Source of the DNA: Blasia pusilla
Taxonomy: Eukaryota
Direction of reading: 5' to 3'
Length of the DNA stretch: 64,000 nucleotides
Assembly: GCA_050084515.1 (NCBI GenBank)
Contig: CM114271.1
Coordinates: 15,686,001-15,750,000 of the forward strand
Both the position numbers and the translations under genes were made by a program. The notes beneath the pieces are model-generated. The model had not been told where the DNA came from. It was given only the letters and a program-made list of their open reading frames with translations, and ran no database searches. Within the stretch, counting starts at the first letter, position 1. Each line of letters opens with the position of its first letter. Shown here in pieces: positions 1-64,000 of the stretch.

Positions 1-973
<973 letters not shown>

Positions 974-3790: not shown

Positions 3791-4020
3791 AAATTGGACC
3801 CATCCAAGTCATCTTGGGGTCCAATAAGCCAAACAGGTTCTCGAGAATCTTATGTAGTTTATATGTGGATTGAGGGCCAAAAGAAGTTTCCCGAGGTGGA
3901 TGCTTAATCTTGAGATGAGGGACCACAAAAATCAGAAGTTCCTTAAGGGGAATCACTTTCCCACCCTACACATCACTACACAATCCACATCGTTGGTCAC
4001 ATCTACACACCACACAACAC

Positions 4021-17858: not shown

Positions 17859-17951
17859 GCCACGTGGCTAAAATATAGATACTCTGGAAGAGACGTGTCA
17901 AGTGTAGATACTCTGGAAGAGACGTGTCTGGAAGGGACTCTGGCACGTGGC
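17859..17951. promoter_or_regulatory. Cluster of G-box/ABRE-like motifs with a 22-bp direct repeat
   Basis: GCCACGTGGC at 17859, GATACTCTGGAAGAGACGTGTC twice (29-bp period), GCACGTGGC at ~17943. Lies between the divergent F-box and transporter genes. Confidence 0.4.
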
Positions 17952-35509: not shown

Positions 35510-38500
35510 CATAAAATAAACCTCAAAAGAAGACAAAAAAAGGTAATAACATCTCAAAAGAAAAGTAAAAAAATGCTTAAAAGAATGTAAAAAAAAAATG
35601 GCAACAAGTCAACGCTAACACCGACTCAACAAGTTACACGATTGATAGTTTGAAACAAATATGACAAGAACACGAGTGGTTGGTCAGACGTGAATGGACG
35701 ATGAGGCGAGCGATCCCCCACCACCTCCGCACAACGTATCAATGCCAAGCTTGTGCACGTTGTAAGGCCACTGAGATGCATTTCCAAAAATAAGTAGTAA
35801 CTACCGAGAGAGAAGGACCACGGGAAGGGGTAAGGTGATGATTCTCGAGGGAGTGGTGAGCACATGTTTTCAGGAAAGTATCAAAAGACACATGTAAATG
35901 ACCGAATACTTCCACTGCGAAAGGAATAAATCCATCAGTCGCATGTCTCACAACATAACTTAACTCCTTGATTCTTGCGGCAGCTTCGGTTGCAAAACCT
36001 TTGGTATGTGTGGCTCGACACACCAAGTCAGAACGTGTTGGATCAGCAACCACCACATCACCAAGTGTCTGGAATCCACCTCGAGACATAACAAGATCCA
36101 CTCTCCGGCTACAGGTTGCTTGTGTGGTTGAAGGTAGGACATGGAGTTGCTCTTGCCCAACGGTGTATCTTGCAGTACGAGCCACCGATGCTATCGCCTC
36201 TTTGATGACATCATGTGTGGCCGTTCGTTCTCCACCATGTGCACATCGGAGAATATGGATACCCTTGGCATCAATGGGATCCCCGCATACACAATTCGGC
36301 ACACCGAATAGAGAAGGATGGGGAAGTCCAAGACGTAACCGCAAAGCTGTCGAGAATATACTTTGAGGAAGACAAAATGGAAGAATAAGAGGATTTGCTG
36401 TAAGCCACGCCCCCGCTCCTATACCCGCACATGAACGCAAACGAGCTCGATGAGCGTCACAGGATGCCTCGGAGAGAATGCTGGAAAAGTTTATTTGATG
36501 CAGATTCTCGAAGATATGCTCTTGAAGTCGATCAAGCCCTTCTGTAATCAGTTGACTCAAAGGGGGTAGAATTGCTTGTGTAGCAAGAGGAAGAAGAGCT
36601 CGTGGAGATCTCAGTTGTTATTGAAATAACAAGTCCCTCTCCTCTACATGGGCGATATGATCCATCAAGATAGGTGTATCTCCTTGGAGAAACCTTGAAG
36701 CCATAATCGGTGCTACCAATGCCCAACTCCCCAAAAAGGCTGTGGGAGCAGATGCGACTGTGGAGGACAGTCCCACCCCTCCAAAAGAAATAGGCAAGAT
36801 AGCTTGTTGTGAAGCAAAGACACCATCCTCTCCGTCAAAGGTATTCGGGCCAAGAAGTTGACCAAAAGTTGCCAAGATAGAAAAGTCAAAAGAGGCCAAC
36901 CGATGTAAGAACCTTGTAGTGGGAGAACAAGAGCGAAGAAGGTAGGAAGGACGTCGTAGAAAAAATTGGGAGAGAATCGTATAAGCCACTTGGGGATCCC
37001 CTAGATGAGGTAACAAATGAAGCCATTCCACGTCTTTCAAAAGGGCCTAATCCAAGAACTTTGAGACATAGTCGATGAAGCCAATTGGGACCCCAAGAAC
37101 TCTAACCCCTTCAATATAGATGGGAAAATCATGAGTAGGTGGGATGAATGTTGAGGGAAGGCATGAAGGAGACCATATTCCACATTTACTAGGTTGGACT
37201 TTAAGGTTTAAGAAAGAAAGCTGCTCCACGAAATGGGTATAAGCAAGAACCACTTGCGAAGGAGGACCTATAATGTGAGTGTCATCAGCAATAGAAGGGA
37301 AAAGACGAGATGGAAACGCTTGCGCTGATGCTCGAAGGGCACAAAAATGGGCAATGGCAAAGAGTGGGCCACCCATGGGATCTCCTTGACATGTGCCACA
37401 AGCCGATTGTAGAATATTATATTCCCCGGAAGTAGCAGGATGGGAATAGATAATGGGCATATCATAGATATAGAAGGAGTGAACAAATGGAATGAGGCTC
37501 GCAAGTTGTCCATCTGCATAACGTAACTCCTCAAAGATGGCCGCACGAGAAACTGAATTGAATGCATTAGCCACATCGACTTGAATTGCTACCCAATCTG
37601 GATGAATATCAAGAGTGGAGCAAATCCCATGCACTACAACCTCACAACCTCTAGGAGTTGCCACTCCAAATTGATGAGGAAATAAGTGGGGACACTAAAG
37701 TGAGGACAAAATTGCAGGCATAGGGGTCGACTAATCAATCGGTATAAAACCTCTCCAATAGCCAAAGGGCGCACACCTGAAGGAGGCTTATCCATAGCCA
37801 AAAGATGACAAGCCCCTGAGAGCCTAGAGATAGAGAATGGGAGAAGACTTGCCACCATATGTGCACACACCTTATATAGAGAGACAAAGCCACTTGCTGA
37901 ATCTACTGGGATAAAGCAATCGCAGAGATGCTTAAAAACCATTCCTGATAGCCCGCTTGCTGATAGGCGAGGAGTATGAAGAAAAACCCTCGTGAAAACC
38001 TCCAAGTCAAGTTCCAAGTCAAGGTCCGTTATATAGTCTTCCACAAAAGGTGGAGCATCGCCACTTGAAGGATGATGAAGAGCTTCTAAGAGGACTTGGA
38101 AACGTGAAAACTCACCAACCTACCCCAAAAGTAGACTTGGGGTAAGGCATTGTTGTATTGAAGGCCTCCCATGATTGGCATGTTGAGTGGGATTAGCTGC
38201 AGCTAAGGCCTCTGCTCGAGGTACATGCTCATTCTGAAGATTCTCCCAATCCCCAGACATAAAGCGTTGAATATATGTGGAGGTTTCACTATGACTCGTC
38301 GTACCACTCCTTGGAGGGAGGACTAAAACCCATTGTGGGAAGAGTAATAGGAGATACCAAGCATTGATATCTGTGGGGTCAAGTGCTAACCTTTCTAATG
38401 GGAAAAGCAAAGCTTGCTAGGTGATGGGGCGAAGAACACGCTAGAATGGTCGCAATGCCCTGCACCTAGTGATCTTGCTTGTGTCAGACCAACATGGGTC

Positions 38501-42200: not shown

Positions 42201-44367
42201 GCTTAAGTCATGATATGCTCCATTGGAGCCTATACCACCTCTAAACTCGTCTGTTGAGGGGGAGAATATGACTGTAAACCAATAGACATTGTCTTCAACT
42301 TTCCCAAGTACTAGTTCAGGATTAGGAGAAGTCCTAGATTCATCAATTAAATCTGTGAGTTCATGGATGGGAAGAGTACGTATTCATTATATTGACACTA
42401 GTCAGAGCTCGAGTCAAGTGTCGGAGGCATCTACCTTTGAACAACAACTTCGTAGATCAAGTAGAGTTACACATGCAGTTCAAAGATTCATAAATGAAGG
42501 CTTCCTTGCAACACATCATGCATATATGATGACTACCCTTTAAGAACAGGAGCCGAGTTGTTTTGAAGAAGCTGCAAGGAAAGTCGAATGGATTGAAGCT
42601 ATGGAGGAAGAGCTTGCTATATTAAGACATCAACAGACATGAGAGTTGGTTGATATACCTTCCGATAAGGAAGCTATTGGCTGCAAATGGGTTTACAAAA
42701 TCAAGCGTAATCAAGATCGTACAATTAACAGAGACAAAGCGAGATTGGTGGCTAAGGGCTATGCACAACAATATGGTATCGATTATGAGGAAATATTTAG
42801 CCCTGTTGCAAAGATGACGATTACGAGTACAGTGGTTGTAGTTGCAGTAAGTAAAAAGTGAAGATTATATGACATGGACGTCAAGAATGCCTTCTTGAAT
42901 GGAGATCTATACGAGCAGATATTTATGACTCAACCACTTGGATACAAGCATCCCAAGTTTCCATTTCGCGTATGCAGATTGAAGAAAGCTCTCTATTGGC
43001 TCAAACAAGCTCCAAGAGCTTGGTATGGTAAGATTACATACCTCCTACAAGAGTTAGGTTTTAGGGTATGTGATTCTGACTCCTTGTTATATGTCTTGAG
43101 AGGACAAGATCATACAGTTCTCATTATGTTGTATGTTGATGATCTCCTGATTATTGGGAATACTGAAGAACTGGTACAACAAGTCAAGCTTAAGTTACAA
43201 GCAAAATTTGATATGAAGGACTTGGGAGAACTCAAGTATTTCCTTGGTATTGAGTTTATCAAGGTTGGAGAGAGTATATGGTTACTACAACAACAATATG
43301 CTCTTCATATGCTTTCAAAATATGGTATGACGGCTTGTAAGCCAATCTCTACACCGTTGGACCAAAGTGTGAAGCTAAGAGTGGATGAAGGAGAGTTGCT
43401 TGCAGATTCTAATATGTACACGCGAATGGTTGGAAGTTTGATATATCTAACTGTAACTAGACCAGATTTGGGTTATGGTGTTGGCCTAGTGAGCCAGTTT
43501 ATGCAAGCATCTCGAAAACCTCACCTTGATTTTATGAGAAGGATTATGCGGTATGTGAAATTCTCTATTGAATTCGGGCTTCAATTTGAATTTTCTCCAA
43601 GTTTTTAATTACATGGATTCATAGATGCTGATTCATGGAAGGGTGTCAGATCAACACTCCACATCTGGTTATTCATTTACTTAGGGAAGCGCAACTATAA
43701 GTTGGGCTTCAAAGAAGCAACCTGCAGTTGCTTTATCTTCAATAGAGGGTGAGTACAGAGGAGCAACCAATGTAGCATGTGAGGCGGTGTGGCTTCATCG
43801 ATTACTTGTTGAGATTCGTGTTAGTAACTTAGGACCTAGTGTAATATATGCAGAAAATATTAGTAGCATCAAGCTTCATAATAATCCTATGTTTCATGCT
43901 CATATAAAGCATGTTGAGGTGCACTATCATTTTATCAAAAAAAAGTACTTGCAGGAGAAATAGATCTTCTGGATATAGGTACAGATCAGAAAATTGTTGA
44001 CATCTTTACAAAGGCATTGTTGAGAGATAAATTTGAGATGTTTAGAAATGATTAAGGCGTTAGAGATATCGATACGAGTTTGAGGAGGAGTATTGAAGAT
44101 TGAGTTACAATCAAGCTCATGAGACACTGAACTGCTATATTTGGTACTCACACGAAGTAGGGAAGCTTAATCTTGGTTAGTCAATTAAGCGTGATTATCT
44201 TAACTAGGGTTAGTAAATCATAATTAGTCTAACTCGAGACTAAGGTTAGGGTTAGGGTTGCTTGTACATATCCTATATAATTGAGAAGGGGACCAGCCTC
44301 CACTCATTCTCTCATTATAAATTTTGTTCTCCATGGTGGTGTGTGTGTGAGAGAGCCGTTTTCCACA
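39134..44367 (+). mobile_element. Full-length degenerate Ty1/Copia element
   Basis: 277-bp LTRs at 39134-39410 and 44091-44367. PBS TAGTATCAGAG (tRNA-iMet type) and PPT GAGGAGGAG. gag, PR (IDSGASNHM), INT, RT (YVDDL) and RH are present with many stops. Confidence 0.95.
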
Positions 44368-50259: not shown

Positions 50260-53200
50260 GTGCGCGGGAATCATGCACGACTAAAGCAAGCCAATGCTAG
50301 GACACTAGTGGAGAAGTCAACCTGCAAGGCTTGGGTAGATATAGATATTTTATTAGCTCGATGGCAGAAAGAGTGCTCCGTGTTCACTAATAAAATGACA
50401 TGTTGTGGCTATTGTGGGTTCGTGTCTTATTGCTCTCAACATTCGTCGATGGCGCTTGTAACATGAGACATATATCCTCCTTATGTACTATGCAATGGGT
50501 ATATGCTTAGGAATATTATTCCAAACCCTAGGTCATTCTATGTTTGCTGTGGCTATGCCAAAAATGGCAGAAATACTGCTACCAATGTCTACATGACTCC
50601 AGCGTATATCCGAGACGTATCGGAAGTCAATCCGCTACACCTTCAGCTCCTCGCTCTTATTGATTGTAGGATAGGTATAGAGGCTAAGTACAACGGTTTT
50701 GAAAAGGGTTTCTTTCAGGTTGACTCCCTAATTGATTGTCCTCTGGTTTCATGGAATATATGGAGTGTAGCTCTTATAAATCCTGAATTCACATTCAGAC
50801 AAGTGAGGAAGGTCCTACTAGTTAATCTCCTGGTAAACGAATTGTATCTACAATACATGCCATTGATTGAACTACCTGACCCAAAATGTGGGCTAGTAAT
50901 CCTACCATCCTCGTATGTTGATGTATTCTAAAGGCATTGCCAGAAAAGGGCCAGCTTACGCATAGCATGGCGGAAAATCCATACAGTGCTGAACTTAATT
51001 GTTCTGCAAGATGTGCATTACTCATTGCTAGTCAAGAAACGTAAATCATATGATATTTTCCACAATGGTATTGTATTTTTTAGAGACGCCGCTCAAACTA
51101 GAGATTTGTTTCTAAGTGACCAAAATGGGATTCCGGTTGACACAAAGCTGACTATTGAGACATGTATTTTTCCTTTTCTGTTTCCTTATATGAGGGGATA
51201 TTTTGGGGTCACTCATCCTTTATCGATTATATGTGCGACAGAACTAGACACTTATTTAGTGTTTTTACACTTTATAAGCCATATCTGCTTGTCATGCACC
51301 AGTTGCGACAATCTATAGCTCTTACATCTTCAAATCAAACATGCATTCTTAACAAGGAACTTGAGCCGTTAAAAAGTAGGAATCATGACCTTAGTGACGA
51401 GGACATCTACTCTCAATTTTCAAAGTATAGCTGCAGTGCTCAGATACCAAGCAACCCGTCCTGGCACCGACGACACTTAAGAGACCTAAAGGCCATGGTA
51501 GCCAAATGGGGGATGCCCGATTTGTATCTAAGTCTCACCTCACATGAGGTATCGAAAAATCAATGGCAAGAAGTATGTGATATTGAACAAGTGATTCAAA
51601 GACTAAACCCAAAATTTTCATGGAGGGATGCCCCAATTGAATGCGCGGTCCTATTTCATACAAGATTGAAAACATTTTTCAACAACTATATACTAGGAGG
51701 CCCACAGATTCTTAGGGATGTCAACAACTACTTAATCCGGTATTAATTGCAGGGTAGAGGTAGTCTTCACTCACACATAATTTTTTGGATCAATAAACAA
51801 GACCTCGATCAGGTAACTTCTGAAATATGTTGCTACATTCCTTAGGTTGGCACCTTTGTACCCCTTACTAACTCTCGTAGTAGTTGTGTTGATAAGCTTC
51901 ACCATTATGTCACTACCAAGCATATACACACATGCAAAAAGGGAGTTTGCACCATTAAGGAAATGAGTTCACACCCACCCTACTGCCAAATGGGATTCCC
52001 TCTACCTTCGAGCTTCTCTTTAGAAGCATCCATAGATGGCAGGATGTTGAAATGGGTCTATTGTCGACCTGGGGAGTGTCATCGCAATGTTATACCGTAC
52101 CATCCAGCTATCCTCTTATTGTGGGGGCTATACATGAATTTACAAAGAGTCACTAATGTCCAATGGTCCTTCTATTTGCTTAAGTACGCCCTAAAGTGCG
52201 AATCACAAGATGCGCTCAATATCACCACAGAGTGTGCTTACTGCCTCGGATTGGAAGGCCTTGATGAAGTTAGACTGAAATTAATATCTGTCCTTGTACT
52301 AAATAGGTCTGTCTCCTCCACTTAAGATACATATTATCTTCAGATCACAATCTGTTTAGTATATTGACTCCAACCCTCCATCCAAAAGGACTCACCTATA
52401 TAAAAATGCCACAGTCCTTTGTATACACCCAACTATTACATATTCACACCGACCAGATTGTCTATCTTCACTAACTTTTTTCCAGTTTTGGTCTTCATAT
52501 GAGATTCGTTAAGCCCACCCTAAGGATACCACATCATTTGTTGCAAGTGACTTGCTTAGGAACTTAGTTTATAAAACATATCGCCTAGTCCGGTTCACTG
52601 AATTTCATCCTCTTCACAACATTATTAGCTTCAGATCTAAGACAGAATTAGTCACTGTCTTGCCTCCACAGTGGTCGTATCTTCATGAATGCATATTTTG
52701 GAGGGCATTCTCAGATGAATGCTCCATTTTCGATGAGTTCAAAAGACATGCTATCTCCAATATGTGGAGTGAAATGCATGTTTGAGAGATTATTTCTAAG
52801 GTTATTGATCTATTGCGCCCTCATCTGCATTTTGATATTTCTCCTTAGTTACATATTCATGCTCAACTTAACAATCACATCGATACTTCACACTCCTTAC
52901 CTGCACCTACTGCCATATCCACTAGTTTACTCAATGTTGAGCAGCTGAATCTATTTCATGAGATAAAGGACCTTATATCTGGCCTTGTAATGTTGTCTGG
53001 CCCACCTGGGTGTGGCAAAACCTTCTTCATACACTTCATGCAACAATATTGGACATCCGTTTCTGTCTCTCCATTGTTGACCGCAACAACAGGGATTGCT
53101 GTTGTATGACTCCACACCATTGCTATTACAGTCCACTCTGCATTTTCCATTCCAATAAAGGGAGACTTGCCGTCAATGCACACTGTTTCAGACCAGTATA

Positions 53201-55547
53201 TGCGACTTAAAGAAGCATGAGTTATTGTCATAGATGAGTCTTCTATGCTTACCCCGCGTTTACTCCAGATTGTGTTGGATTCTCAACATCCACTTCTCTG
53301 AGCACCATTAATCTGATCGGCCCTCTTTGTATGAGGAGAAGCCTAGATTGATGGATCCGATTATACGTCGGAGGAGTCATAGTAATATGACGTAGGTAGT
53401 CTACAGAGTAGCGTTACTAAGATTATCTAACCCTATATTGCATCAGGGTGCGGGACACCCTAATGCAATATAGGGTTATATAGGGTGCAATATAGGGCAT
53501 CTGATGCAAAATTTTTCTATTAATAGAAACAAAGAAAAATAGGTAAAAACCCTAGCTCCCCGAGTAATGAAAAAGTCGGGAGCGGAAGCGGTAGTGCATT
53601 CTCATATGTCGAGTTATCTCCATGTTCAGGTTCCATCGAAGCTCTTTTGTGATCGCACGGACGGACTAGACCACTTTGTATCTCTAAGTTTTATAAAGAT
53701 TTCAGTGATTTTGTCACTTTCTGTTTTCTCACATGGTATCAGAGTGGTAGGTTTTCCAGTATTTTGTATCTGGCAATCTAGTGTGTTTGCACAAAATCTT
53801 GAGAGATGGCTACTTCTTCGTTAGTTCGTGCTTGCCTCCTCCTCTGGATGAAGGGAAGTTAGATGGGTGTAACTATACGTTGTGGAAGTTCAAAATGAGA
53901 ATTGTCTTCAAATCATTTGAGATCTGGGAGACGGCCACAGGGGTCGATTCGAATCCACAAGCTACTTTGAGTTTTGCATGTTCATCTTCATCTAGGGATA
54001 TTGATCCTGTTGTATTGTACTGAAATGGAAACGCAGAAATGCTGATGCTCTACATGCGAGAATCTGAATCTCGTGCCCAATCCGAGTCACAAAAACCTAT
54101 CATTTCCGTCCCTAGTCCATAGGTGATGCCGTACTCGATAGTGCCTTTGATGTACTTCAACACACGCATCCCTGCCTTCCAATGGTTCTCACGAGGCTTA
54201 GTTGAGAACCTACTCAACACTCCCACAGCGAAGCTAATGTCTGGTCTAGTGTTACACAAAAATATCAAACTGCCTACAAGCTTTTCAGACAACTTTTCAT
54301 CTACCAATGGTGAAACATCCTCCATCGAGAGTTTCAACTCTACCTCCATTGGCGAGACCACTGCCTTACACTCGGTCATCCCGAATGCCTTCAAGATTTC
54401 TCTAGCATACTTTTGTTGAGAGAGAAAAATAGAATCTGACTATTGCCAAATCTCTAGCCCTATAAAGTAGTGCAAAAGACCTAAATCTGACATTTCAAAC
54501 TCGGATTTCAACACTTCCTTCATTTCCTCTATTTTCTTACTGTGGTCTCCTGTGATGATAAGATCATCCACATACAGGACTATCAACATATACATCCCAT
54601 CTACGAATTTTCTATGCTTACCTCGTGTTTACTGCAGATTGTTGCAATAAGGTTGCATCAAGTATCATCGCGACCAAACCTTGATCCATTCTCAGAGAAA
54701 CTCTTATTATTGGTAGGTGACCTCTCTCACCTCCCTCTAGTTTGTCGACATAAATCATCTCACCTATGCCTAGTATGTCACATTTCATCATCGCCCTTTT
54801 CATCTCTCCATTGCCATCTGCCATTCTGGTGATACATCTTTCTTGAGTTTCCTATCTAGTGTAAGACACTCTAAACCGACAAGAGATCAAATAGACTCCC
54901 ATTTGCAACAATGCTTTGTTGATGAGAACCATGCTCTTGACTTTATTGATGGAAATACACAAATTATATGTTCTCATTGCTCTGATGTTCAACTATTTAA
55001 CTTGGTTGCACAACAAAGGCTGTATGGACATGCTGAAAATTTTCCTATCCATGTATCTAGTGACGCGCCTAACAATCCACAGTTTCATTAGTGGATTGCT
55101 GATTCCAACTTCCATCAACTACAATTTCTTGCTATCGACTGCAAGGTGATATTAACTTCAAACATTGACATAAGTAATCAGGTAGTCAATAGTGATTCTG
55201 GTACTGTTATTGAATGTCTCCATGATACCCACCATGTCACTGTAATTGTTATCAAGCTGCACTCTAATAGTTGAATTATTCATGTGACAAGAACAAACTT
55301 CTCTATGTTACAATACGGACCAAACCTCAAATACCATAAGAAGACATTTCCTATTGTTCTTGGGTATGCAATCACTGGTCATAAGAGTCAAGGCTTCACT
55401 ATGAATGGAAAATGTTTGCTAGTCATCAAGTCATCTTTTGTACCAGGCCTTGTGTATGTTTTGCTCTCCAGTGTGAAGAGTACATCCAATCTGCGCATCC
55501 TTGGGTCCTTGTCCCCATCAAATTTTGATATATTCACTGAGACATGA
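50260..55547 (+). mobile_element. Degenerate Helitron Rep/PIF1-helicase coding region
   Basis: FPFLFP, WGMPDLYLSLT, RY*LQGRGSLHSHIIFW (HUH), YLLKYALKCE. Helicase motifs: SGPPGCGKT (~52997), IVIDESSML, LLLVGDL..LP, FPIVLGYAITGHKSQG, GLVYVLLS. Confidence 0.9.
53273..54609. mobile_element. Rearranged Copia fragment inside the Helitron helicase: LTR+PBS+gag start (+) fused to inverted RT (-)
   Basis: LTR TGTTGG...CTCACA at 53273-53733; PBS TGGTATCAGAG at 53734; gag KLDGCNYTLWKFKM. Minus-strand RT (YVDDLII, TRPDISFAVG, FCDSDWA) at 54050-54609. Confidence 0.85.
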
Positions 55548-56304: not shown

Positions 56305-56900
56305 TCGTGCGGATACACATCGCTACACAACATACATCGCTGTCACCAAACACGCACGATCCCATGCTAACTTATGGCATCCAAACAATGAGATAAAAAT
56401 GTACCAAAATATCTCTAATAAAATAAGATCCAATCTCTCTCACAACACTATAGTTCTCACATGTCTCTCTCAACGTCAAACCAAACCCACTCTCCTAATG
56501 AGAGGCTTGGGTTACACACACAAGGCAAACAAGACCATAGCTCCGCCGTCTCTTGCCAAGAAGTTCAACAAAGAGAGAATGAGCTCTCAAGCTCTCTCTC
56601 CTTGAGATATACCCCTCCCCTCTCCCAATCTCTCTCCATGGTAACCTTTGCTCCCAAGTCACCTCCTTGGCTCTTGACCCGATGTAGGAGGTCAAGGGCC
56701 ACTTACCAAAAATAGAAAGTTGATCATATACTCAAAATGATACTTACCTAAAATAGTAAGTTCCTCAATATGGCTCTAAATGAGTTGAAACGAAAGGGAA
56801 ACCCTGCTCTCTCAAGTTTCCCAGGGCCTCAACAGGTCATCCTCAACCTACTCTCAGCCTGTCCTCACTACTAATGAAGGTGCTCTACTAGATCTCACCG
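56305..56900 (-). mobile_element. LTR of the DNMT-Gypsy family (longer copy, directly adjacent to the element)
   Basis: 56305-56415 matches 56927-57048; the sequence then continues with U3/R-like sequence. The right boundary is approximate. Confidence 0.65.
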
Positions 56901-57232
56901 ATCTATCCTAAAAGATGTGATAGTTGTCGTGTGCGTACACATTGCTACACAACATACATCACTGTCACTAAACACACACACAAACACGCAAGATCCCATG
57001 CTAACTCATGGCATCCAAAAAATGAGACAGGAAGTACCAAAATATCTCCAATCGCCCCCCTAGCTGGTGGTTACGTCCCTCTAACTCTAGATAGCCATCT
57101 ACCCCAAGTTACCATGACATACATCTCTCGGACGCTAAGATCAAGAAGGCCGGGTTCTCATGTGGCCCCATTGCTAGTCGCCTTCTTGTCATCCATGTCA
57201 CAGACACAAGTCAAAATGTAGAACTACCTACT

Positions 57233-57373
57233 TTATGTACATTTGGGACACATCCATCGTCCTGGAGGAACCCTAGTGAGAGGTGGCATCAAACATGCCA
57301 TATGCCATCCTCTCGAACATCCATCACATACTAGCATAGTGGTTGCACCATGGGCAGAACCACACAACATACA
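57233..57373 (-). other. PHD finger (C4HC3) at the C-terminus of the Gypsy integrase
   Basis: CMLCGSAHGATTMLVCDGCSRGWHMACLMPPLTRVPPGRWMCPKCT*; all eight Zn ligands present. Confidence 0.92.
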
Positions 57374-58016
57374 CTGTAAACCTACAAGAACTATTTCTAA
57401 GCTTCGGATCAAGTGTATCCATGATGATAGTAGGTCGATAACCACCTCAATGTTATCGATGTTGGGGAAGATGACATGGCATCAGGTCATTCAACACCTT
57501 CACATGGCCCTTCCAAACCATACAAGCGCGTCCTTCCAATAAGAGAACACGGGATGGCAAAACCTCACGTACTCTCAAGATGATACGCCCTATATTCACA
57601 TCCAATGTCATGGATGTCATCTATTATAAGAAGACATAGTCTCCATGATGATAGTAGGTCGATAACCACCTCCCCGAATAGTTGCATACCTCAACGTATC
57701 CCGATGTTGTGCAATCATCAAGTTCTCAAACGCCATGGGCATCACTCTAAACAAATCCCGAGAATCTCAAGAAGATCAAAGAGAACATGTTCACATCCAT
57801 ACATCTTTGGGTCATCAACTTTCAACACCTCACCAACATCTCGGTCCTCCTTGAATGGCCACTAGAAGCAATAGGTAAATCTGACTTTCGCCATAAAGCA
57901 ACAAGCATAATATAGTATTAGTTAGTTACGGTGAGAAAGACACTAAGGATGCAATGGATATGTGATGTAGAAGCTCTTAATTGTCAAGTGGAGAGGAGAG
58001 TGTGATCGCTCTTGAT

Positions 58017-58020
<4 letters not shown>

Positions 58021-58073
<53 letters not shown>
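58021..58073. repeat. (CT)n microsatellite interrupting the integrase
   Basis: About 26 CT units seen directly. Confidence 0.95.
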
Positions 58074-58076
<3 letters not shown>

Positions 58077-60869
58077 ATCCCATCGCCAACCATGGCAATT
58101 CTTTGAAGGTCCCAATATCCTAGGTGACCTCTTTGCAAGCCATACTTGCGTAGTCCTCTCTTCATTGTCTGCACAACTCGCTCCGCTAGTCCATCCGCCT
58201 CAGGATGATCTCACGAAGTAGTGCGGTGGTCGATCAATATCTGATCACTCAAGGCCAGAAACTCCCCTCGGAACTCTCTACCCTGGTATGTCAATACCTC
58301 AGCTGATGCGCCGTATTGACTCAACACTCGTTCTAGGAAGGCATACACTGCTCCCTCACTTGCTTTGTCAAGCAATGCAACCAACTCTATCCACTTTGAG
58401 AAGTACTCAACCATCACCAACACATATCGACTATGGCACTCCGTCAAAGGCAAAGGTCGTGCAAAATCCAAACTCCATCTATAACCTAAACCCATGATTG
58501 GAAGTGGATGCAACTCTGGAGTCAGAGCATTGAACAATGCTCAGACTCAATCACACACCATGCATCTGGCAACAAACTGCTACACGTCAGTCTGCATGCC
58601 TTGCCACCAATACTGAATTTGGAGCAAGTTGTACGTCCGCTTCACTCCAAAATGACCCAACTCCTCGTGGGCATGATGCACCAAATGTGCTCTCTGCAAA
58701 GGATGAGGCACTACATGCACTCTACCATCCTCCCACACTGGCAATACATGTGTGCCCTTCCACCGGAACTGTCTGGCTCGTTGTAGGATCCAATCCCGCT
58801 CTCTAGCATCCATTGTGCTTGCGACGGTGCCAATGCACAGGTACTCCAAGACCACTCCATCGTCGTGAATGTCTCGGCCACCTGTCGTCTCCTCGCCGGC
58901 CTCTGGATCTAAGGACTCTCCATCAGACCTCGCCATGCATCGAACTCTCAGCAATCTGGCCCTCAATAGCCAACAAGCCCAAATAGACTAATACATGCCA
59001 TCCTGGCACCAACTCCTCATCACTCTCACCATGCCAACGAGCTTCAGGCGTATCTCGCTGACTCGAGCATGGGTTACGGCTCAAACCATCTGCATCTTGG
59101 TTGAGCGTCCCAGGTCTATGCACCACCTGCAAGTCATACTCCGGCAACAAAAGAGTCCACCTCGCAAGCTTCTCTGTAAGCTTGTCGGACTCCATAAACC
59201 AGTTAAGTGGTTGATGATCACTAATGATGGTAAAGGGATTGCCAAATAGATAACATCTAAAATGTGCGACAACCCACACTACAGCCAAGCACTCATCCTC
59301 ATATGAGCTATACTTTGCCTCTGCAATGTTGTTCGAGCAACTTGCGTAAGCCACCACGAACTCTCTACCATCATTGTCATGCTGGGTGAGCAGGGCTCCA
59401 AGCCCCAACCTGCTCCAATTGATATGCAATTGGAAAAGACGCCCCCTGATCGGTCTCCTCAATATGGGCGCGGACGTCAATATGTCCTTGAGTATCTGAA
59501 ATGCTCTCTCTTGCTCATCACCCCAGTGCCACTCTGATCCACCTTGGTCATCAAGGTTAGGGGCTTCGCAATTGAACTAAAACCCTTGACGTATTGTTGA
59601 TAGAAGTTCGCCAATCCCATGAATGCACGAACTCGACTCACATGTGTAGGGCGTGGAATATGTGAAATAGCCTCTACCTTTGTCTATTGCACACCAAGGC
59701 CCTCTAGGTATATCGTATGAGCCAAGTACTCAATCTGGCCATAGAAGAACTTGCACTTGCCCGGATGTAGCTTCAGCCCATGTAACTGCAATCGTCGAAA
59801 TACCTCCTCTAGATGTCGCTCATGCTTCTCAACCGTGGCGCTAAAGACTACAATGTCATTAATATAACACCTAGCAAAATCCAGACTTGCCAAGATCCTA
59901 TCCATGACCCTGTGAAACTTAGTTGGGGCGTTCTGGTCTGTAGGACCCTGACTCCTCCCAGTAATCTAGGGAAAACCCCATCGGATATAACCCCGATTGG
60001 CAAGAACCGCCACTGGTACAAACAATCCTTCCCTTGAAGATCGATGCCCCAAAATGCCATCTTCTGCCTGTCCTCCAATCTGATAGGCAAATGATGGTAT
60101 CGGGCCCGCAAATCCAATGAACTGAAGACCTTTGCATGCCCAATCACATCAAAGATCTCCTCAGGGGTGGGCATGGCATACCTATCGGACTGCGTCTACC
60201 AATTGATAGGTCGGTAATCTCCACACATCCTCCTATCCGTCTAGTTGCAATGCACATCCTTCTTGGCGGGCATAACAATGGCAGATGCATACTCTCCAGG
60301 TGACATCTCCACTAGTCTTGCTCCAACCAAGTCCTGGCTCCTACTCTAAATCAAAGCCCTCTCCATGTCACTATACCTATAGGATCGTCGGAAGATCGAC
60401 GTGTCACTCGACAACTCAATACGGATCCTTGGACCCTTCTGCGTATCCAAATCATGCATACTAAATGCAAAATAGCTCCTATAACTCCTAAGGAACTGGT
60501 GTATCCCGCGCCGCTCTCCTCTTGTCAACTTAGGGCCCATATCTGGCTCCCAAGTCTCCATCGTGACTACGATAAGACTCTCCGGTGCGGGTGTCGGTGG
60601 TTGCTATGGTGCAACCCCATCTCGGACAATAGAACTCTCATCTCCACGTGTAGTACTCGAAACCACACTCAATGATGTGGCTATCATCTCTTGGCGTACC
60701 TGAAAAACATCCCAAGAAGTCCAAGGGTGTCTCTTCAGATCACCCTTGATGTGTCGATCTCCTCGGGTCTCACCCCTAGCCGTAGCCGCAATCGCCTCGG
60801 TAGGCATAGGGCTCACCAACGCAATAGCTGTGATCTATGCATCCTCAAACGATCGCTGCTCAACTACTC

Positions 60870-61825
60870 TTAAGCTGAAAATCCATGTCAAGTAGTTTAG
60901 GTCCATCGCTTGACCCAAGACATAACGTCGTCATGCCTCTAATAGTGACGATACTGCCGTCACTCCTGTGGGAAATCCCATTGCTCACTCTCGCTCATTA
61001 AAGTTGGGCTCCACCAACCTCTGTACTTGGTCATCCCAAACCAAGCCAGGTGCGGCCTCCTTGAATGCATAGGAAGCATGAATACTCACCAATGTGAGAA
61101 AGGCTTCCTGTGGCGTGCCAATCCTGTTGACCACAATCAAGGGCGATTGATCATCTAACCTCACTGCCTGTGATCGACGGCCCAGATCCAATATAGAATC
61201 CACTAACAAATCGTAGGGGCACTCCACTCTCGCATATGCCCTCCGTAACACCTTGTGTGGTACCAAGTTGGTCCACCAAAGACGCGGGCAATGTGCTCGT
61301 GAACCCACACTCACCGCATCTAAGAACACTGCGGGGCCGATCCATGCGCGCACCTGATGTGCACTCGTCACCACGTGGGACCTCGAATCGCCCAAAATTG
61401 GCACATTCTCCAAAATGTATGTTGAAGAACGAGGCTGATGCTCTTGTAAATATCGCAAGATCCGCATCATCTCCCAAAACAACATGGACCGAGTGTCAGC
61501 TAACCCACTACCCCGTCCAACACTTGATTGGCGCTGATATGACCACCCAACAATGACCAAGTCTATGGTCCCTACCCGCTCCAAGTCTTGCGCCCCCAAC
61601 AATGAAATGTCCCTCGGTAGGAAACTTTGGTAACCCTGAATGGCAAACGCAGACAACAAGTCGGGGAAATGGAGGCATAACAACGCCACATGGTGAAGTG
61701 AAGCGCGCCTTGCAACATCATCAATCTCCACATATAGGTACTACTGCACGTGCACTCCAACATGTAAAACAGCAGCTAACCCAGTGTTGATCTCTCCAAA
61801 GAGATCCAACACCCAAATACCCTTC
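60870..61825 (-). pseudogene. Retrotransposon-encoded C5 cytosine DNA methyltransferase domain (DNMT3-like), decayed
   Basis: One reading frame with stops. Motif I VLDLFGEI, II YVEID, III RDI, IV IDLVIVGWSYQ (from GWPCQ), LFWE, VI YILENV, VIII AHCPRLWWTNL, IX ERE*AMGFPTG.T, X VLGQAMDLN. Confidence 0.9.
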
Positions 61826-64000
61826 TCTCGGATGCACCACACAATCGGGGTGGTGTCCAAAGGGGTCATAGAAGCACTCCTACGTACTTGGGGTTCCTCT
61901 TACCTTTCACACTCTGGTGCAAACGTCTTGTTCCACGCGGTTTGCAGATGTTTAGTGGCTAAGCGTCGGAGCTCCTCAGTCGAGCCCCAAAGCGGCACCT
62001 CTCCTCCACGCACTGATGCGGCTACTATGACACTCCTCTGCATAGAAATGTCAGGAACGGGAGTATCCTAAGCATAGACTATGCCAAGGACCTCCTGTCG
62101 GGTGATATATCTCAATCAAATCACTAGGCCAAGTGATGGCACTGCTAAATGCTGCTAAGGTCAGCATCTCTCCTAGCCTTTGCTCGATCACTCCACCAGT
62201 GAATCGAACGGGTAATGAGCTAAGGCGCCCATCAAGACTCTACATCAGTCACTATTGCCTTGGCTCGCACTACGGACTCATCTGTAGGATGTCCCGGGCG
62301 AATCCTTGCCACGACCTCCTGTCGGGTGATATACTATGTGGTACTTGCTCCACCCAAGATGTCTATATCCGGAATGGACAATGCTCCATATCGGCTCTCG
62401 ACAAGCCCAATCCTCTGAATGACGCTTTCCCCAACATCAAGGGTTTTGCTCCTGAATCCAACAAGATGCGATGCGGACTAAAAGCTCTACCTCCGGGACT
62501 CACCAACTAGAAGACCTCTCCCTGGTTATCCAGCAACACAACACTAGGAGAAACCATGGCACGCCCTATCGCGGGTCCAGCCATCCTAGCAACCTAGCGT
62601 TGCCATGAATCTGACGTGGATGGCCCGAGCATCCGCTCCAAGGGCAGGTCCATCACCTCCTCTGCAATCACCTCTGAACGTGATGCAGGAACTCCAACTC
62701 CACGCTCACATAGCATAGCGGCCAACCGAAAAACCTCGGCGGGTGTACCTCCCAACGTCATAACATTGGAAGCAAAAAATAAAGAAGTGCGATACACAAC
62801 GGTGGCCACGCCAACAACATCCTCGACACATGCCCCTCGTAAGCACCAACAATAGAAGTCGTCACACTCGCTTCTCCCATCGCCCTCCGCGCCTGCACAC
62901 CAACAACATCACAAACTCTACAGGAACTCTCATCAAGACCCATCGATGGGGTCCTCATCGCTTCGGACAACGTGAAAGACTGAGGAAGCCTAGTCTATTT
63001 CTTGGCTTCCCCTCACTGTGGATCCAACTTTGCGGCTGCTCCACGCGTCACAATTGCGGCGGCCTCCATCTAGGCAACTCCGCATATCCAACCAGGATCC
63101 TCCATATCTCTGGCTGCTCCATATGATGTTGATGCCACGGATCCGGCATCGGGTAACCTCAATGCCATAGCGGCAATCTGCTCCAGTAGTTGCTGTATCT
63201 GAGCAGCCATCCCAGCCTCATGTTTGGCGTCTCCCTCGATGCGTCTAGGTGGTGGGACTCTACCTCCTCCATGGGAAGCTCCACCACTCTGTCGGGCAAC
63301 TCCAGCTCCTCGTCCCCCAACGAGACCACCTGGTGCACGATCTCTAGCCCACCCCGACCGGCTACTCGCTCTGGTGCCATCTTTGGCCCTCGGTCCGGAC
63401 GTAGCTCAGGGTGTAAGCTGAAACACCTGAGACGTGTATGACCATACCTCTAACAATAGTCAAATTGATAACCTCCTGTTCCAGCACTATCTCCTCCTTC
63501 ATGTTGAGGCACACGTCCATGACCTTGATGAATGCAATCGCGCTCATGATGGGCTCCACCACATGACCAACAAGTAATCGTAGGCAGCTGCTGTTGAGCC
63601 GCATATGAAGGTGCAAGTCTCTGTGGCATGGCCTCGTGGTATGCTCCTTGAGCTTCAGGTGCCACAGTCGACCTATCTTGGAGTCCACGTTGCTACATTG
63701 GTGATGCAGAAAATCGTGATTGCTCTCGCCCAGAACCCATGGTGGCTTCACTCTCCTCCGCCATGTTCCGCTCAATGTTCTCGGCGGTCCTTAAAACATC
63801 TCTCAACATAGAGGTGTTCATAAGGAGCACCCCCTCCCGCACCCGTGTCCGCAGGGTCCGATCCAGCATCGCGTACCATGACTGGATAGCCTGAGCCACT
63901 ATCACCCCCTGAGTGACATTGATCAACCGCCGCAAGCCAGTGTAAGCCTTATGCAAACTCTCACCCGGGCGCCTGTGGAAGTCGTGGATGCTCCGCAACT

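What the first reader, a model, noticed from the sequence alone, without database searches (positions are those of the whole stretch)
60870..61825. Gypsy retrotransposon carrying its own DNMT3-like cytosine methyltransferase inside pol
Seen: a complete ordered set of C5-MTase motifs (I, II, IV, VI, VIII, IX, X) lies on the same strand between the aspartic protease (~62450) and RT (~60450), with no introns. It therefore looks like an integral polyprotein domain rather than a later insertion. Known: the R.R..W.NL motif and ERE..GFP..YT-type C-terminus are DNMT3/DRM-family features, and the non-permuted motif order fits DNMT3 rather than DRM. Retrotransposon-borne DNMTs have been reported from dinoflagellates and the charophyte Klebsormidium, but are not a standard feature of land-plant Gypsy lineages. 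Inference: the enzyme could be packaged in the particle and methylate new cDNA or the insertion site. This copy is dead: catalytic PC reads SY (TCA TAT, two transitions from CCA TGT), FGG reads FGE, and there are in-frame stops.
Basis: partly seen in the sequence, partly recalled or inferred. Interest (0 to 1): 0.93.

Follow-up and report, generated by a model that had tools for sequence, protein, structure and literature searches.

The report
Dead retrotransposon carrying DNMT3-like methyltransferase
This is a decayed copy of a jumping gene that carries its own DNA-methylating enzyme, a kind so far described in print only from algae, yet close relatives turn up in liverworts and mosses and the family is abundant and transcribed in this genome.

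Summary
On the minus strand, window ~64000-56305 is one decayed Ty3/Gypsy-type element: gag, protease, C5 cytosine methyltransferase, RT, RNase H, integrase, PHD finger. The methyltransferase stretch passes Pfam PF00145 narrowly (23.7 bits, cut-off 22). It has 100 relatives (best E 7e-128) in Marchantia, Calypogeia, Sphagnum and metagenomes. A profile and a fold model of intact relatives both match DNMT3A/B/C first. Relatives keep PCQ/ENV, and intact copies show dN/dS of about 0.1 in the domain.

One correction: the domain is not inside pol. It ends a gag-protease-DNMT reading frame, which a conserved in-frame UAG-CAR stop (32 of 37 related loci, and the window) separates from RT-RNase H-integrase-PHD. 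The repeats follow the A-coding-B-A-B layout reported for KnitGypsy-Dnmt3 of Klebsormidium.

In this genome, 0.19% of sampled WGS reads hit the 1.5-kb DNMT stretch, and sense-strand RNA reads are present.

Verdict: a new member of a known kind (Gypsy-DNMT3), here extended to land plants. Enzyme activity and self-methylation remain inferred.

The parts
63400..63998 (-). gag, 5' part cut by the window end. About 156 residues of gag and the 5' repeat lie beyond 64000. The CCHC zinc knuckle CWSCGGAHHERDC lies at about 63572-63534.
   Evidence: tblastn of Marchantia P0104 residues 157-354 and Sphagnum P0122 residues 103-283 onto 63998-63402; translation.
62111..62818 (-). Aspartic protease region (LLDSGAKPLMLGK near 62460), with frameshifts.
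   Evidence: tblastn of P0104 residues 517-789 and P0107 residues 30-184. Relatives P0114, P0118, P0119 and L039 ORF1 hit Asp_protease_2 / gag-asp_proteas at the homologous place, at E 5e-5 to 2e-4 and below Pfam's cut-offs.
60706..62067 (-). DNMT3-like C5 cytosine methyltransferase region. The core runs 61830-60870 and the Pfam-matched stretch 61611-61378. It is dead here: FGE for FGG (61800-61792), SY for PC (61542-61537), and stops at 61743-61741, 60987-60985 and 60933-60931.
   Evidence: PF00145 at 23.7 bits against a cut-off of 22; one tblastn segment, 52.7% identity to P0104 residues 796-1243; alignment A1; motif table.
60595..60603 (-). Conserved in-frame stop between the DNMT frame and the RT frame: UAG CAA CCA, which fits the UAG CAR YYA context. 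Candidate leaky stop.
   Evidence: the same place carries a stop plus CAA/CAG in 32 of 37 related loci. Proteins P0104, P0101, P0004, P0018 and P0020 end there. The CAR YYA consensus is taken from a passage of PMC2754532.
59680..60576 (-). Reverse transcriptase, with stops and frameshifts.
   Evidence: Pfam RVT_1 E 7e-12 at 59935-59711; tblastn of P0107 residues 688-975.
58923..59576 (-). RNase H (open 217-aa frame).
   Evidence: Pfam RT_RNaseH E 2e-29 and RT_RNaseH_2 E 2e-27.
58127..58800 (-). Integrase: H2C2 zinc domain (58696-58550) and the rve core (58483-58208).
   Evidence: Pfam Integrase_H2C2 E 1e-14; rve E 3e-6, 27.7 bits, below its cut-off of 32.6; tblastn of P0122 residues 1114-1240 at 71.7% identity.
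58017..58073 (.). (TC)29 microsatellite between the integrase core and the PHD finger.
   Evidence: TRF.
57233..57481 (-). PHD finger (C4HC3; core 57373-57239) at the C-terminal end of the integrase frame.
   Evidence: Pfam PHD E 1e-9, 38.6 bits against a cut-off of 24. The same finger lies downstream of integrase in at least 13 related loci and at residues 990-1034 of the 1047-residue intact L039 ORF2. The best solved matches are KDM5B and KDM5A PHD1 (E 3e-14), then CHD4, PHF12 and ATXR5.
56305..57052 (-). 3' terminal repeats in the layout B1 (about 57052-56927), A2 (about 56926-56420), B2 (about 56419-56305). The element ends near 56305. A1 lies outside the window.
   Evidence: Direct repeats at 87-94% identity. 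The B copies match the B repeats of loci L048 and L036.

Best explanation
Window ~64000-56305 (minus strand) is one decayed, non-autonomous copy of a Ty3/Gypsy-type retrotransposon of the Gypsy-DNMT3 kind.

SHOWN from natural relatives: intact members have two frames in the same phase.
- ORF1 encodes gag (CCHC), an aspartic protease and a DNMT3-like C5 cytosine methyltransferase domain with all catalytic motifs.
- ORF2 encodes RT, RNase H, integrase and a C-terminal PHD finger.
- A single conserved UAG followed by CAR separates the two frames.
- The termini are split direct repeats in the layout A1-coding-B1-A2-B2.

INFERRED mechanism:
- ORF2 is made by occasional read-through of the UAG. The methyltransferase would then be made with Gag-protease, in excess over RT and integrase.
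- It is released by the protease and travels with the particle.
- It methylates the element's own new DNA, either the cDNA or the fresh insertion.
- The integrase-borne PHD finger, which resembles readers of unmethylated H3K4, steers integration towards silent chromatin.

The copy in the window cannot do any of this. It has lost the catalytic Cys, carries three stops in the domain, and has many frameshifts elsewhere. Its substitutions are dominated by C-to-T and G-to-A, the decay expected of methylated DNA.
For: Identity of the domain:
- PF00145 hit on the window.
- 100 and 24 homologues.
- A profile of 12 intact relatives hits DNMT3A/B/C at E 2.4e-19 to 1e-15, DRM at 1e-9 and M.HhaI at 2e-5.
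- An AlphaFold model (mean pLDDT 67, core above 80) has DNMT3A/B/C as all listed matches down to rank 49 (E about 1e-15, TM 0.72-0.79 by target length for catalytic-domain chains).

Architecture:
- The window is collinear with the Marchantia and Sphagnum polyproteins from gag to integrase.
- P0107 has DNMT, then RVT_1, then RNase H. P0114, P0118 and P0119 have PR, then DNMT.
- Intact L039: ORF1 has PR and DNMT; ORF2 has RVT_1, RNase H, H2C2, rve and PHD.

Stop:
- 32 of 37 loci plus the window have TAG or TAA followed by CAA/CAG at the same place, in phase on both sides.
- The window reads UAG CAA CCA. The CAR YYA rule comes from PMC2754532.

Selection:
- Intact copies L038, L039 and L041 give DNMT dN/dS of 0.10-0.14 over 331 codons. 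The linker gives 0.36-0.60; RT-RH gives 0.037 (L038-L039) and 0.354 (L039-L041, 220 codons); INT-PHD gives 0.046.
- Cys of motif IV is kept in at least 244 of 259 relatives with that column filled.

Repeats:
- The A1...B1-A2-B2 layout is seen in L048, L052 and L036, with no B upstream of A1. B1-A2-B2 is seen in the window.

This genome:
- 23401 of 12.43 million sampled WGS reads (0.19%) lie on 60600-62100 at 80% likeness or more.
- The three RNA runs give 588-854 reads, strongly biased to the direction expected of sense transcripts.
- Other-letter places number A>G 58 and T>C 63, against C>T 26 and G>A 28.
- Two of this copy's three stops are absent from most genomic reads: 60932 in 1784 of 1848 reads, and 61743 in 977 of 1403.
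Against: - No activity has been shown for any Gypsy-DNMT3. In de Mendoza 2018 the KnitGypsy-Dnmt3 domain gave no methylation in yeast, which the authors called inconclusive (passages read).
- Read-through is inferred from sequence context only. In the largest group of loci the third codon is CCC, not YYA.
- All 24 metagenome loci examined (those with a single near-full-length match, of 58) carry 1-7 stops in the domain. dN/dS among those decayed copies is only 0.54 (247 of 276 pairs usable), against 0.36 for RT-RH (26 of 45 pairs usable).
- The L039-L041 RT-RH value is 0.354, higher than that pair's DNMT value (0.137), over 220 codons of a partial alignment.
- The reads at the SY/PC codons were not among the 40 of 455 rows printed. 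So an intact Cys in this genome's own copies is not shown.
- The PHD reading preference is recalled knowledge about the matched proteins, not a test.
- I could not align a Klebsormidium element or host DNMT3/DRM genes. Membership of that lineage rests on shared architecture.
Confidence: 0.85

Rival explanations
1. The methyltransferase is a retained but non-catalytic module in the family, such as a DNA-binding or chromatin-tethering pseudo-enzyme, or it acts on RNA instead of DNA.
For: KnitGypsy-Dnmt3 showed no DNA methylation in yeast. In 89 of 259 relatives motif IV reads ECQ instead of PCQ.
Against: In the window's own clade, FGG, PCQ, ENV and the motif IX/X residues are kept. dN/dS is about 0.1 over the whole domain in intact copies. 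The closest solved folds are DNA enzymes (DNMT3A/B/C); the tRNA enzyme DNMT2 scores far lower (E 4.6e-4 against 2.4e-19).
Confidence: 0.12
2. The methyltransferase is a one-off capture: a host DNMT3 fragment or a nested insertion in this copy only, or a chance motif match.
For: The Pfam score on the window alone is only 1.7 bits above the cut-off, and only profile positions 49-119 are matched.
Against: The same domain lies at the same place, in phase, in named proteins of three bryophyte genera and in 58 metagenome loci. There are 441 representative clusters at E<=1e-30. 0.19% of this genome's sampled WGS reads lie on the stretch.
Confidence: 0.01
3. The in-frame stop is a plain gag-pol-like boundary served by another mechanism, such as a spliced or subgenomic RNA or re-initiation, and not by read-through.
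For: No experiment bears on it. The moss-type loci have ATG two codons after the stop (CAA CCC ATG).
Against: Both frames are in the same phase in every intact copy (L038, L039, L041). Coding conservation starts directly after the stop, and Gln is always the next codon. The window and the L038/L039-type copies have no Met nearby.
Confidence: 0.2

Closest known systems
KnitGypsy-Dnmt3 of Klebsormidium nitens (de Mendoza et al. 2018, PMC5890265; passages read)
   Same: A Gypsy-type domain set with an intronless, non-permuted Dnmt3-like domain in the coding region. The repeats follow the DIRS-like A-coding-B-A-B layout. The domain is under purifying selection (their Ka/Ks is below 0.2; here about 0.1 in intact copies). 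The host is a streptophyte.
   Different: The host range here is land plants: named relatives come from Marchantia, Calypogeia and Sphagnum, plus Closterium in the same DNMT-before-RT half of the tree. The paper's main text, searched by term, has no occurrence of Marchantia, Sphagnum, Physcomitrella or PHD, and I saw no mention of an in-frame stop in the passages read. Its figure and supplements were not visible to me, so these features may be shared. No Klebsormidium sequence was available for a direct alignment.
SymbioDIRS-Dnmt3 of Symbiodinium (same paper)
   Same: A retrotransposon-borne Dnmt3-type domain with A-coding-B-A-B repeats. It showed CG methylation in yeast.
   Different: That element uses a tyrosine recombinase and is a DIRS element. 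Here there is a DDE integrase (rve) and the Gypsy domain order.
Cellular DNMT3A/3B/3C catalytic domains (solved structures)
   Same: Best sequence-profile and fold matches. The motif order I-IV-VI-VIII-IX-X is collinear.
   Different: Identity is only about 20-23%. Pfam finds no PWWP or ADD domain in ORF1. The region between motifs VIII and IX is longer (profile positions 228-314, against about 63 residues in DNMT3A) and was modelled with low confidence.
Plant DRM methyltransferases
   Same: The same superfamily. Part of the profile matches them (E 1.2e-9).
   Different: DRM is circularly permuted, and only profile positions 39-164 align, to the C-terminal part of DRM. Here the motif order is not permuted.
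Chromoviruses (Gypsy elements with a chromodomain on integrase)
   Same: A histone-reader module at the C-terminal end of integrase. The 2026 preprint 10.64898/2026.05.21.726589 (passage read) describes the chromodomain's role in directing insertion.
Leaky UAG of tobacco mosaic virus replicase (UAG CAR YYA; PMC2754532, passage read)
   Same: The window reads UAG CAA CCA. L038 and L056 read UAG CAA UCA. L039 and L041 read UAG CAG UUA.
   Different: That case is an RNA virus replicase, not a retroelement. Read-through is untested here. The moss-type copies read CCC at the third codon.
EpiLTRs (Cymbomonas, Euglena; preprint 10.64898/2026.05.21.726589, passages read)
   Same: LTR elements that combine a cytosine methyltransferase with a chromatin reader.
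   Different: Those carry a DNMT4-related domain plus an adenine methyltransferase and a chromodomain. The preprint states that this is a separate acquisition from the streptophyte Gypsy-DNMT3.

Membership tests
C5 cytosine DNA methyltransferase (Pfam PF00145) | Profile score above the curated cut-off | tested here: met
   The window scores 23.7 bits against a cut-off of 22. Relatives score 35-51 bits.
C5 cytosine DNA methyltransferase (Pfam PF00145) | Catalytic Pro-Cys of motif IV | tested here: not met
   The window reads SY, so this copy is not an enzyme. Relatives read PCQ (143) or ECQ (89) among 259 with the column filled.
C5 cytosine DNA methyltransferase (Pfam PF00145) | Motif I (FxGxG, SAM binding) and motif VI (ENV) | tested here: inconclusive
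   ENV is kept. Motif I reads FGE in the window, against FGG in relatives.
DNMT3 type, as opposed to DRM, DNMT1, DNMT2 or bacterial enzymes | Closest to DNMT3 catalytic domains, with a non-permuted motif order | tested here: met
   By profile: DNMT3A/B/C E 2.4e-19, DRM 1.2e-9 (partial match only), M.HhaI 1.7e-5, DNMT2 4.6e-4, and no DNMT1 at E<=0.01. By fold: all listed matches down to rank 49 are DNMT3A/B/C.
DNMT3 type, as opposed to DRM, DNMT1, DNMT2 or bacterial enzymes | Groups with DNMT3 in a phylogeny that includes host DNMT3 and DRM genes | not tested
   No host DNMT3 or DRM sequences could be fetched.
Canonical cellular DNMT3 gene | N-terminal PWWP and/or ADD reader domains; a multi-exon host gene | tested here: not met
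   Pfam finds neither domain in ORF1 of the relatives. The domain is intronless and flanked by PR and RT.
Ty3/Gypsy (Metaviridae-type) LTR retrotransposon | Domain order gag-PR-RT-RNase H-INT, with the RVT_1 / RT_RNaseH / Integrase_H2C2 / rve families | tested here: met
   window; intact L039.
Ty3/Gypsy (Metaviridae-type) LTR retrotransposon | Two plain long terminal repeats | tested here: inconclusive
   The window's 5' end is off the window. Related complete loci have A1...B1-A2-B2, not two identical LTRs.
Gypsy-DNMT3 lineage (KnitGypsy-Dnmt3) | Dnmt3-like domain in the coding frame of a Gypsy-type element; intronless; conserved key residues | tested here: met
Gypsy-DNMT3 lineage (KnitGypsy-Dnmt3) | DIRS-like repeat layout A-coding-B-A-B | tested here: met
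   Seen in L048, L052 and L036. B1-A2-B2 is seen in the window. A1 could not be seen in the window.
Gypsy-DNMT3 lineage (KnitGypsy-Dnmt3) | Sequence kinship with the Klebsormidium elements | not testable with these tools
   No Klebsormidium protein appeared by name. The paper's supplements are closed.
Programmed stop-codon read-through (UAG CAR YYA type) | UAG followed by CAR YYA, with the downstream frame in phase and coding | tested here: met
   The window reads UAG CAA CCA. 32 of 37 loci have a stop plus CAR. YYA is seen in the window, L025, L038, L039, L041 and L056; the moss-type loci read CCC.
Programmed stop-codon read-through (UAG CAR YYA type) | A read-through product is demonstrated | not testable with these tools
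   This needs a reporter assay or a proteomic test.
PHD finger (PF00628) | Profile score above the cut-off and the C4HC3 pattern | tested here: met
   38.6 bits against a cut-off of 24. The C-x2-C...C-x2-C-x4-H-x2-C...C-x2-C pattern is read from the translation. KDM5B PHD1 matches at E 2.6e-14.

The most novel reading that the evidence does not exclude
An ancient and still active streptophyte lineage of Gypsy elements runs from zygnematophyte algae (Closterium) to liverworts and mosses. It makes a working DNMT3-type enzyme as the tail of Gag-protease, in excess over RT and integrase through a leaky UAG. It pairs the enzyme with an integrase PHD finger that reads unmethylated H3K4. In this way it writes cytosine methylation on its own new copies in silent chromatin. 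With about 0.2% of genomic reads on the DNMT stretch alone, and with sense transcripts present, such elements would be a real, unrecognised source of de novo methyltransferase activity in bryophyte genomes. Naturally intact copies in the model plant Marchantia polymorpha would make the idea testable.
Probability: 0.25. Interest if true: 0.85.

Novelty: new member of a known kind. Interest (0 to 1): 0.62.

Why it matters
Cytosine methylation is the host's main tool for silencing transposons, so a transposon that carries the writer itself is a paradox. The only published cases I found are from dinoflagellates, Klebsormidium, Cymbomonas and Euglena. One paper states that methylase-bearing transposons are absent from land plants "such as tracheophytes" (PMC6338049, passage read).

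The data here show the Gypsy-DNMT3 kind in liverworts and mosses, including annotated and apparently intact ORF1 genes of Marchantia polymorpha. The family is large and transcribed in the window's genome. That moves the open question, whether such enzymes methylate the element's own DNA, into a genetically tractable land plant.

The work also adds three features that shape any mechanism:
- the enzyme belongs to the Gag-protease frame;
- a conserved UAG-CAR stop precedes RT;
- integrase ends in a PHD finger.

It also warns annotators. Many "DNA (cytosine-5-)-methyltransferase" and "CCHC-type" gene models in bryophyte genomes are transposon ORF1s, and one is filed under a bacterial MAG.

Tried and rejected
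- Whole genome: none is held for this window. Copies in the same genome could only be seen through reads.
- Earlier notes of this scan: nothing for this genome or for this sequence. One diatom note turned up by words.
- Indexed runs: no RNA holder is listed. The raw RNA runs were laid instead.
- Reads at the SY/PC codons (61542, 61538) and at the stop at 60987: not among the 40 of 455 rows printed. The cap on read laying is 1, so this stays untested.
- Organism: the name is coded, and I did not try to resolve it. The closest named relative by identity and by tree path is Calypogeia fissa P0101 (63%).
- Cluster look-ups gave no names for 10 of 10 proteins. In one search only Closterium and Hariotina were named.
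- The Atlas search gave only a lead: a 57-member methylase cluster, mostly Streptophyta.
- Klebsormidium did not appear by name in any protein search.
- A phylogeny against host DNMT3 and DRM could not be built.
- dN/dS among the decayed metagenome copies is a poor test, because decay after insertion inflates it. I replaced it with intact copies. There, two of the three pairs have dS of about 1.4-1.5, near saturation, so only L039-L041 (dS 0.25) is clean.
- Literature: nine searches and passages of 11 papers. None describes these elements in bryophytes. Subscription journals and supplements were not searchable.
- A chance match and a one-off insertion were considered and rejected (see the rival explanations).
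Full report
**What is there**

The last 7.7 kb of the window (about 64000 down to 56305, minus strand) is a single decayed retroelement.

- Pfam on stop-bridged translations of the three minus frames finds RVT_1, RT_RNaseH and RT_RNaseH_2, Integrase_H2C2, rve, PHD and PF00145 DNA_methylase.
- tblastn of related polyproteins shows the whole stretch is collinear with them: gag 63998-63400, protease 62818-62111, methyltransferase 62067-60706, RT 60576-59950, RNase H 59519-59013, integrase 58507-58127.
- The frame changes repeatedly along the element, and it holds many stops.
- About 156 residues of gag and the 5' repeat lie beyond the window end.
- Only one copy is present in the window.

**The observation**

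- The open frame 60985-61740 scores 23.7 bits on PF00145 against a cut-off of 22. Its best solved-structure match is DNMT3C at E 0.024. Alone this is marginal.
- A protein search with the stop-bridged 343-residue translation gives 100 hits. The best has E 7.3e-128 and 60% identity over 99% of the query. Named hits come from Calypogeia fissa, Sphagnum troendelagicum, S. tenellum, Marchantia polymorpha and M. paleacea.
- The search among longer proteins gives 24 hits. They include a dozen Marchantia proteins of 960-1330 residues and one from Sphagnum fallax.
- In alignment A1 the relatives read FGGISTGLA, GWPCQGH, ENV, RPRLWWTN, ERERAMGF and LGQAMD, in that order. The window reads FGE, GWSYQ, ENV, CPRLWWTN, ERE*AMGF and LGQAMD.

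**Which methyltransferase**

- A profile of 12 intact relatives (A2) hits solved DNMT3A, 3B and 3C at E 2.4e-19 to about 1e-15. It hits the permuted plant DRMs only partly (E 1.2e-9), M.HhaI at 1.7e-5 and DNMT2 at 4.6e-4. No DNMT1 appears at E<=0.01.
- The alignment to DNMT3A is collinear from motif I to motif X, so the order is not permuted.
- An AlphaFold model of P0001 with A2 has mean pLDDT 67 and pTM 0.73. The core is confident; the stretch between motifs VIII and IX is poor.
- All listed fold matches down to rank 49 are DNMT3A/B/C, at E about 1e-15. TM-scores by target length are 0.72-0.79 for catalytic-domain chains and lower for longer chains.
- No PWWP or ADD domain is found in the relatives' ORF1.
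- So this is a DNMT3-like catalytic domain, not a canonical DNMT3 gene.

**It is a family feature**

- P0107 (Marchantia) has DNMT, then RVT_1, then RNase H in one protein. P0114, P0118 and P0119 have protease, then DNMT.
- A scan of metagenome contigs returned 58 loci. In these, gag, protease, DNMT, RT, RNase H and integrase follow in the same order.
- The window's PHD finger finds its counterpart downstream of integrase in at least 13 loci. The middle's output was cut, so the true number may be higher.
- In the intact locus L039, ORF1 (1369 residues) carries protease and DNMT. ORF2 (1047 residues) carries RVT_1, RNase H, H2C2, rve and a PHD finger at residues 990-1034.

**The correction: a conserved stop**

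The DNMT frame and the RT frame are in the same phase, separated by one stop.

- In L038, L039 and L041 the two long frames are separated by one codon.
- Reading across the junction, the window and the loci all show ...*Q... at the homologous place. The annotated proteins P0104 (Marchantia), P0101 (Calypogeia), P0004, P0018 and P0020 end exactly there.
- Of the 37 loci (of 58) in which the RT-leader motif could be found, 32 have TAG (24) or TAA (8) followed by CAA or CAG.
- The five exceptions are L027 and L028 (a different stop 28 codons upstream), L035 (TAG TAG CCA), L052 (TAA TAA CCC) and L046 (GAG, a sense codon).
- The window reads UAG CAA CCA. L038 and L056 read UAG CAA UCA. L039 and L041 read UAG CAG UUA. 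The moss-type loci read UAG CAA CCC.
- The six bases CAR YYA after UAG are the consensus reported as essential for read-through of the tobacco mosaic virus replicase stop in plants (PMC2754532, passage read).
- I infer that ORF2 is made by read-through. The methyltransferase therefore belongs to the abundant Gag-protease product, not to pol. This is inference from context, not a demonstration.

**Termini**

- Three complete loci (L048, L052, L036) have a repeat of about 340 bp upstream of gag (A1) and again after the PHD finger (A2). A 115-bp repeat lies on both sides of A2 only (B1, B2). No B copy is found upstream of A1, even at a relaxed threshold.
- The window has B1 (about 57052-56927), A2 and B2 (about 56419-56305). 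Its B copies match those of L048 and L036.
- A-coding-B-A-B is the layout that de Mendoza et al. describe for DIRS elements. Their Fig. 4c legend says the Klebsormidium Gypsy-Dnmt3 elements share it (PMC5890265, passages read).
- How an element with a DDE integrase uses such termini is unexplained.

**Selection and motifs**

- One search examined the 24 metagenome loci (of 58) with a single near-full-length match. All 24 carry 1-7 stops in the domain.
- Pairwise dN/dS among them is 0.54 (median; 247 of 276 pairs usable). For RT-RNase H it is 0.36 (26 of 45 pairs usable). On the same six loci the values are 0.545 and 0.367. These values are inflated by decay after insertion.
- Among the intact copies the DNMT domain gives 0.120 (L038-L039), 0.101 (L038-L041) and 0.137 (L039-L041; dN 0.035, dS 0.254; 331 codons).
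- Other segments in the intact copies:
  - linker before the stop: 0.36-0.60
  - protease-to-DNMT stretch: 0.185
  - RT-RNase H: 0.037 (L038-L039) and 0.354 (L039-L041, 220 codons of a partial alignment)
  - integrase-PHD: 0.046
- Two of the three DNMT pairs have dS near saturation.
- Across 326 sequences with the domain, motif IV is PCQ in 143, ECQ in 89 and a gap in 67. At least 244 of the 259 filled positions keep the Cys. The window's SYQ is not among the eight commonest forms.

**How wide the family is**

- An exhaustive profile search of 1.84 billion representatives finds 7760 proteins at E<=0.001, 1776 at E<=1e-10 and 441 at E<=1e-30. The best 150 are all below 1e-60, and many are 1000-3456 residues long.
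In 18 the DNMT lies before RT, as in the window. In 76 it lies after RNase H, giving RT-RH-DNMT-INT-PHD, as in P0141 and P0147.
- A FastTree tree was built from 169 DNMT domains. These were 194 near-full domains minus 25 rows at least 80% identical to a kept row. The tree has one branch, with SH-like support 99 on both sides, that puts all 8 DNMT-before-RT rows among 47 rows and all 64 RT-before-DNMT rows among 122 rows.
- That tree has no outgroup, a midpoint root and no bootstrap.
- Named members of the first side are Marchantia, Calypogeia and Closterium (a zygnematophyte). Chromochloris lies on the second side in the tree. Haematococcus and Hariotina are further named chlorophyte relatives that were not in the tree.
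- The window sits in a 12-row clade (support 99) with the liverwort sequences and unnamed metagenome sequences, as sister to the rest. Its end branch is long (0.51), as expected of a decayed copy. Its nearest row is Calypogeia P0101, at 63% identity.

**This genome**

The organism is coded in the run list, and I did not try to resolve it. Raw reads were laid on 60600-62100 at 80% likeness or more.

- 23401 of 12.43 million sampled WGS reads lie on it (0.19%). The depth is about 1000 in each direction. Only 17 reads are 99% alike or better. So there are on the order of a thousand copy-equivalents; this is a rough figure, since the genome size is unknown.
- Three RNA-seq runs give 668, 588 and 854 reads, mostly under 90% alike, so they come from other copies.
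- The first mate lies on the + strand about ten times more often than on the minus strand (for example 57.6 against 3.3). In most stranded libraries that means RNA of the minus strand, which is the element's sense strand.
- Places where at least 20% of WGS reads differ from the window number 256. Of these, 58 are A>G and 63 are T>C, against 26 C>T and 28 G>A. So this copy has A or T where the family mostly has G or C, the pattern expected from deamination of methylated cytosines.
- At 60932, 1784 of 1848 reads turn the third stop into TCA. At 61743, 977 of 1403 reads remove the first stop. At 61533 and 61550 most reads restore the family's G and A of VIAGWPCQG.
- The rows for the SY codons were not printed, so whether this genome's other copies keep the Cys is not shown.

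**The PHD finger**

- Its best solved relatives are KDM5B and KDM5A PHD1 (E about 3e-14), CHD4, PHF12, KAT6A, ATXR5, DPF3, PHF21A, AIRE and UHRF1.
- From recalled knowledge, not from a call, most of these read the unmodified H3 tail (K4me0 or R2).
- PHD fingers are said to be a common accessory domain of Chlamydomonas transposons (PMC8557442, passage read).

**Literature**

- de Mendoza et al. 2018 report Dnmt3 in a Gypsy element of Klebsormidium nitens, with Ka/Ks below 0.2. A term search of the main text finds no occurrence of Marchantia, Sphagnum, Physcomitrella or PHD.
- In their yeast assay the KnitGypsy-Dnmt3 domain gave no methylation, which they call inconclusive.
- Morozov et al. 2019 state that methylase-encoding transposons are not present in land plants "such as tracheophytes".
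- A 2026 preprint speaks of "streptophytes (Gypsy-DNMT3)" and describes separate DNMT4-type EpiLTRs.
- Passages of Marchantia and bryophyte chromatin papers and of Yaari 2019 mention no transposon-borne DNMT3.
- Nine searches found no description of these elements in bryophytes. Subscription journals and supplements were out of reach.

**Verdict**

- The finding is real and correctly read.
- It is a dead member of the Gypsy-DNMT3 kind, which is known from one charophyte. It is shown here to be widespread in liverworts and mosses, and abundant and transcribed in the window's genome.
- The features new to me are the placement of the enzyme in the Gag-protease frame before a conserved UAG-CAR stop, the integrase PHD finger, and the two architecture-defined halves of a very large family.
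- Enzyme activity, read-through, packaging and self-methylation are inferred, not shown.

Noticed in passing
window 51159-55547 (+): A Helitron-like element lies next to the retroelement's 3' end. Pfam Helitron_like_N hits at 51159-51746 (E 7.5e-11). A PIF1-helicase-like frame lies at 55275-55547; that reading comes from the translation only, as Pfam gave no hit.
   Followed up: partly
window 15592-16860 (-): An intronless 422-residue frame carries an F-box (E 4e-12), Kelch motifs and the KIB1-4 beta-propeller. It is a plant-type F-box/Kelch gene and the only clear host gene I saw in the window.
   Followed up: partly
window 27341-28876 (-), 42862-43608 (+), 37047-37694 (-): Other retroelement fragments: two Copia-type RVT_2 frames (E 3e-77 and 2e-46) and one RVT_1 frame (E 1e-7).
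   Followed up: partly
proteins P0141 and P0147, and 76 of the 94 held sequences that have both domains: A second architecture exists, RT-RNase H-DNMT-integrase-PHD. It forms the other half of the DNMT tree and includes the chlorophyte Chromochloris. The position of the domain is a clade-defining trait.
   Followed up: partly
motif IV in 89 of 259 relatives: Motif IV reads ECQ instead of PCQ: the catalytic Cys is kept but the preceding Pro is replaced by Glu. Closterium P0181 is among these. The consequence for catalysis is unknown.
   Followed up: no
protein P0018; locus L041: A record labelled 'MAG TPA: DNA cytosine methyltransferase [Candidatus Obscuribacterales bacterium]', on a 2410-bp contig, ends with the same residues as the ORF1 end of the eukaryotic element L041. 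It is probably a eukaryotic transposon fragment binned into a bacterial MAG.
   Followed up: partly
Marchantia, Sphagnum and Calypogeia gene models: Many annotated 'DNA (cytosine-5-)-methyltransferase', 'CCHC-type domain-containing' and 'hypothetical' proteins of bryophyte genomes are ORF1 or fragments of this element family, not host genes.
   Followed up: partly
L036 about 100-4700 (minus) and 17500-18800: Further, more distant DNMT-bearing Gypsy fragments flank the main element on the same 22.6-kb contig, one of them inverted. This points to a nest of such elements.
   Followed up: no
window 58017-58073: A (TC)29 microsatellite lies inside the element between the integrase core and the PHD finger. 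I did not check whether relatives have it.
   Followed up: no
window 60838-60853: Most genomic reads differ from the window by a 1-base insertion after 60838 (381 of 655) and a 1-base deletion at 60853 (436 of 612). So this copy has a short out-of-phase stretch just after the DNMT domain.
   Followed up: no
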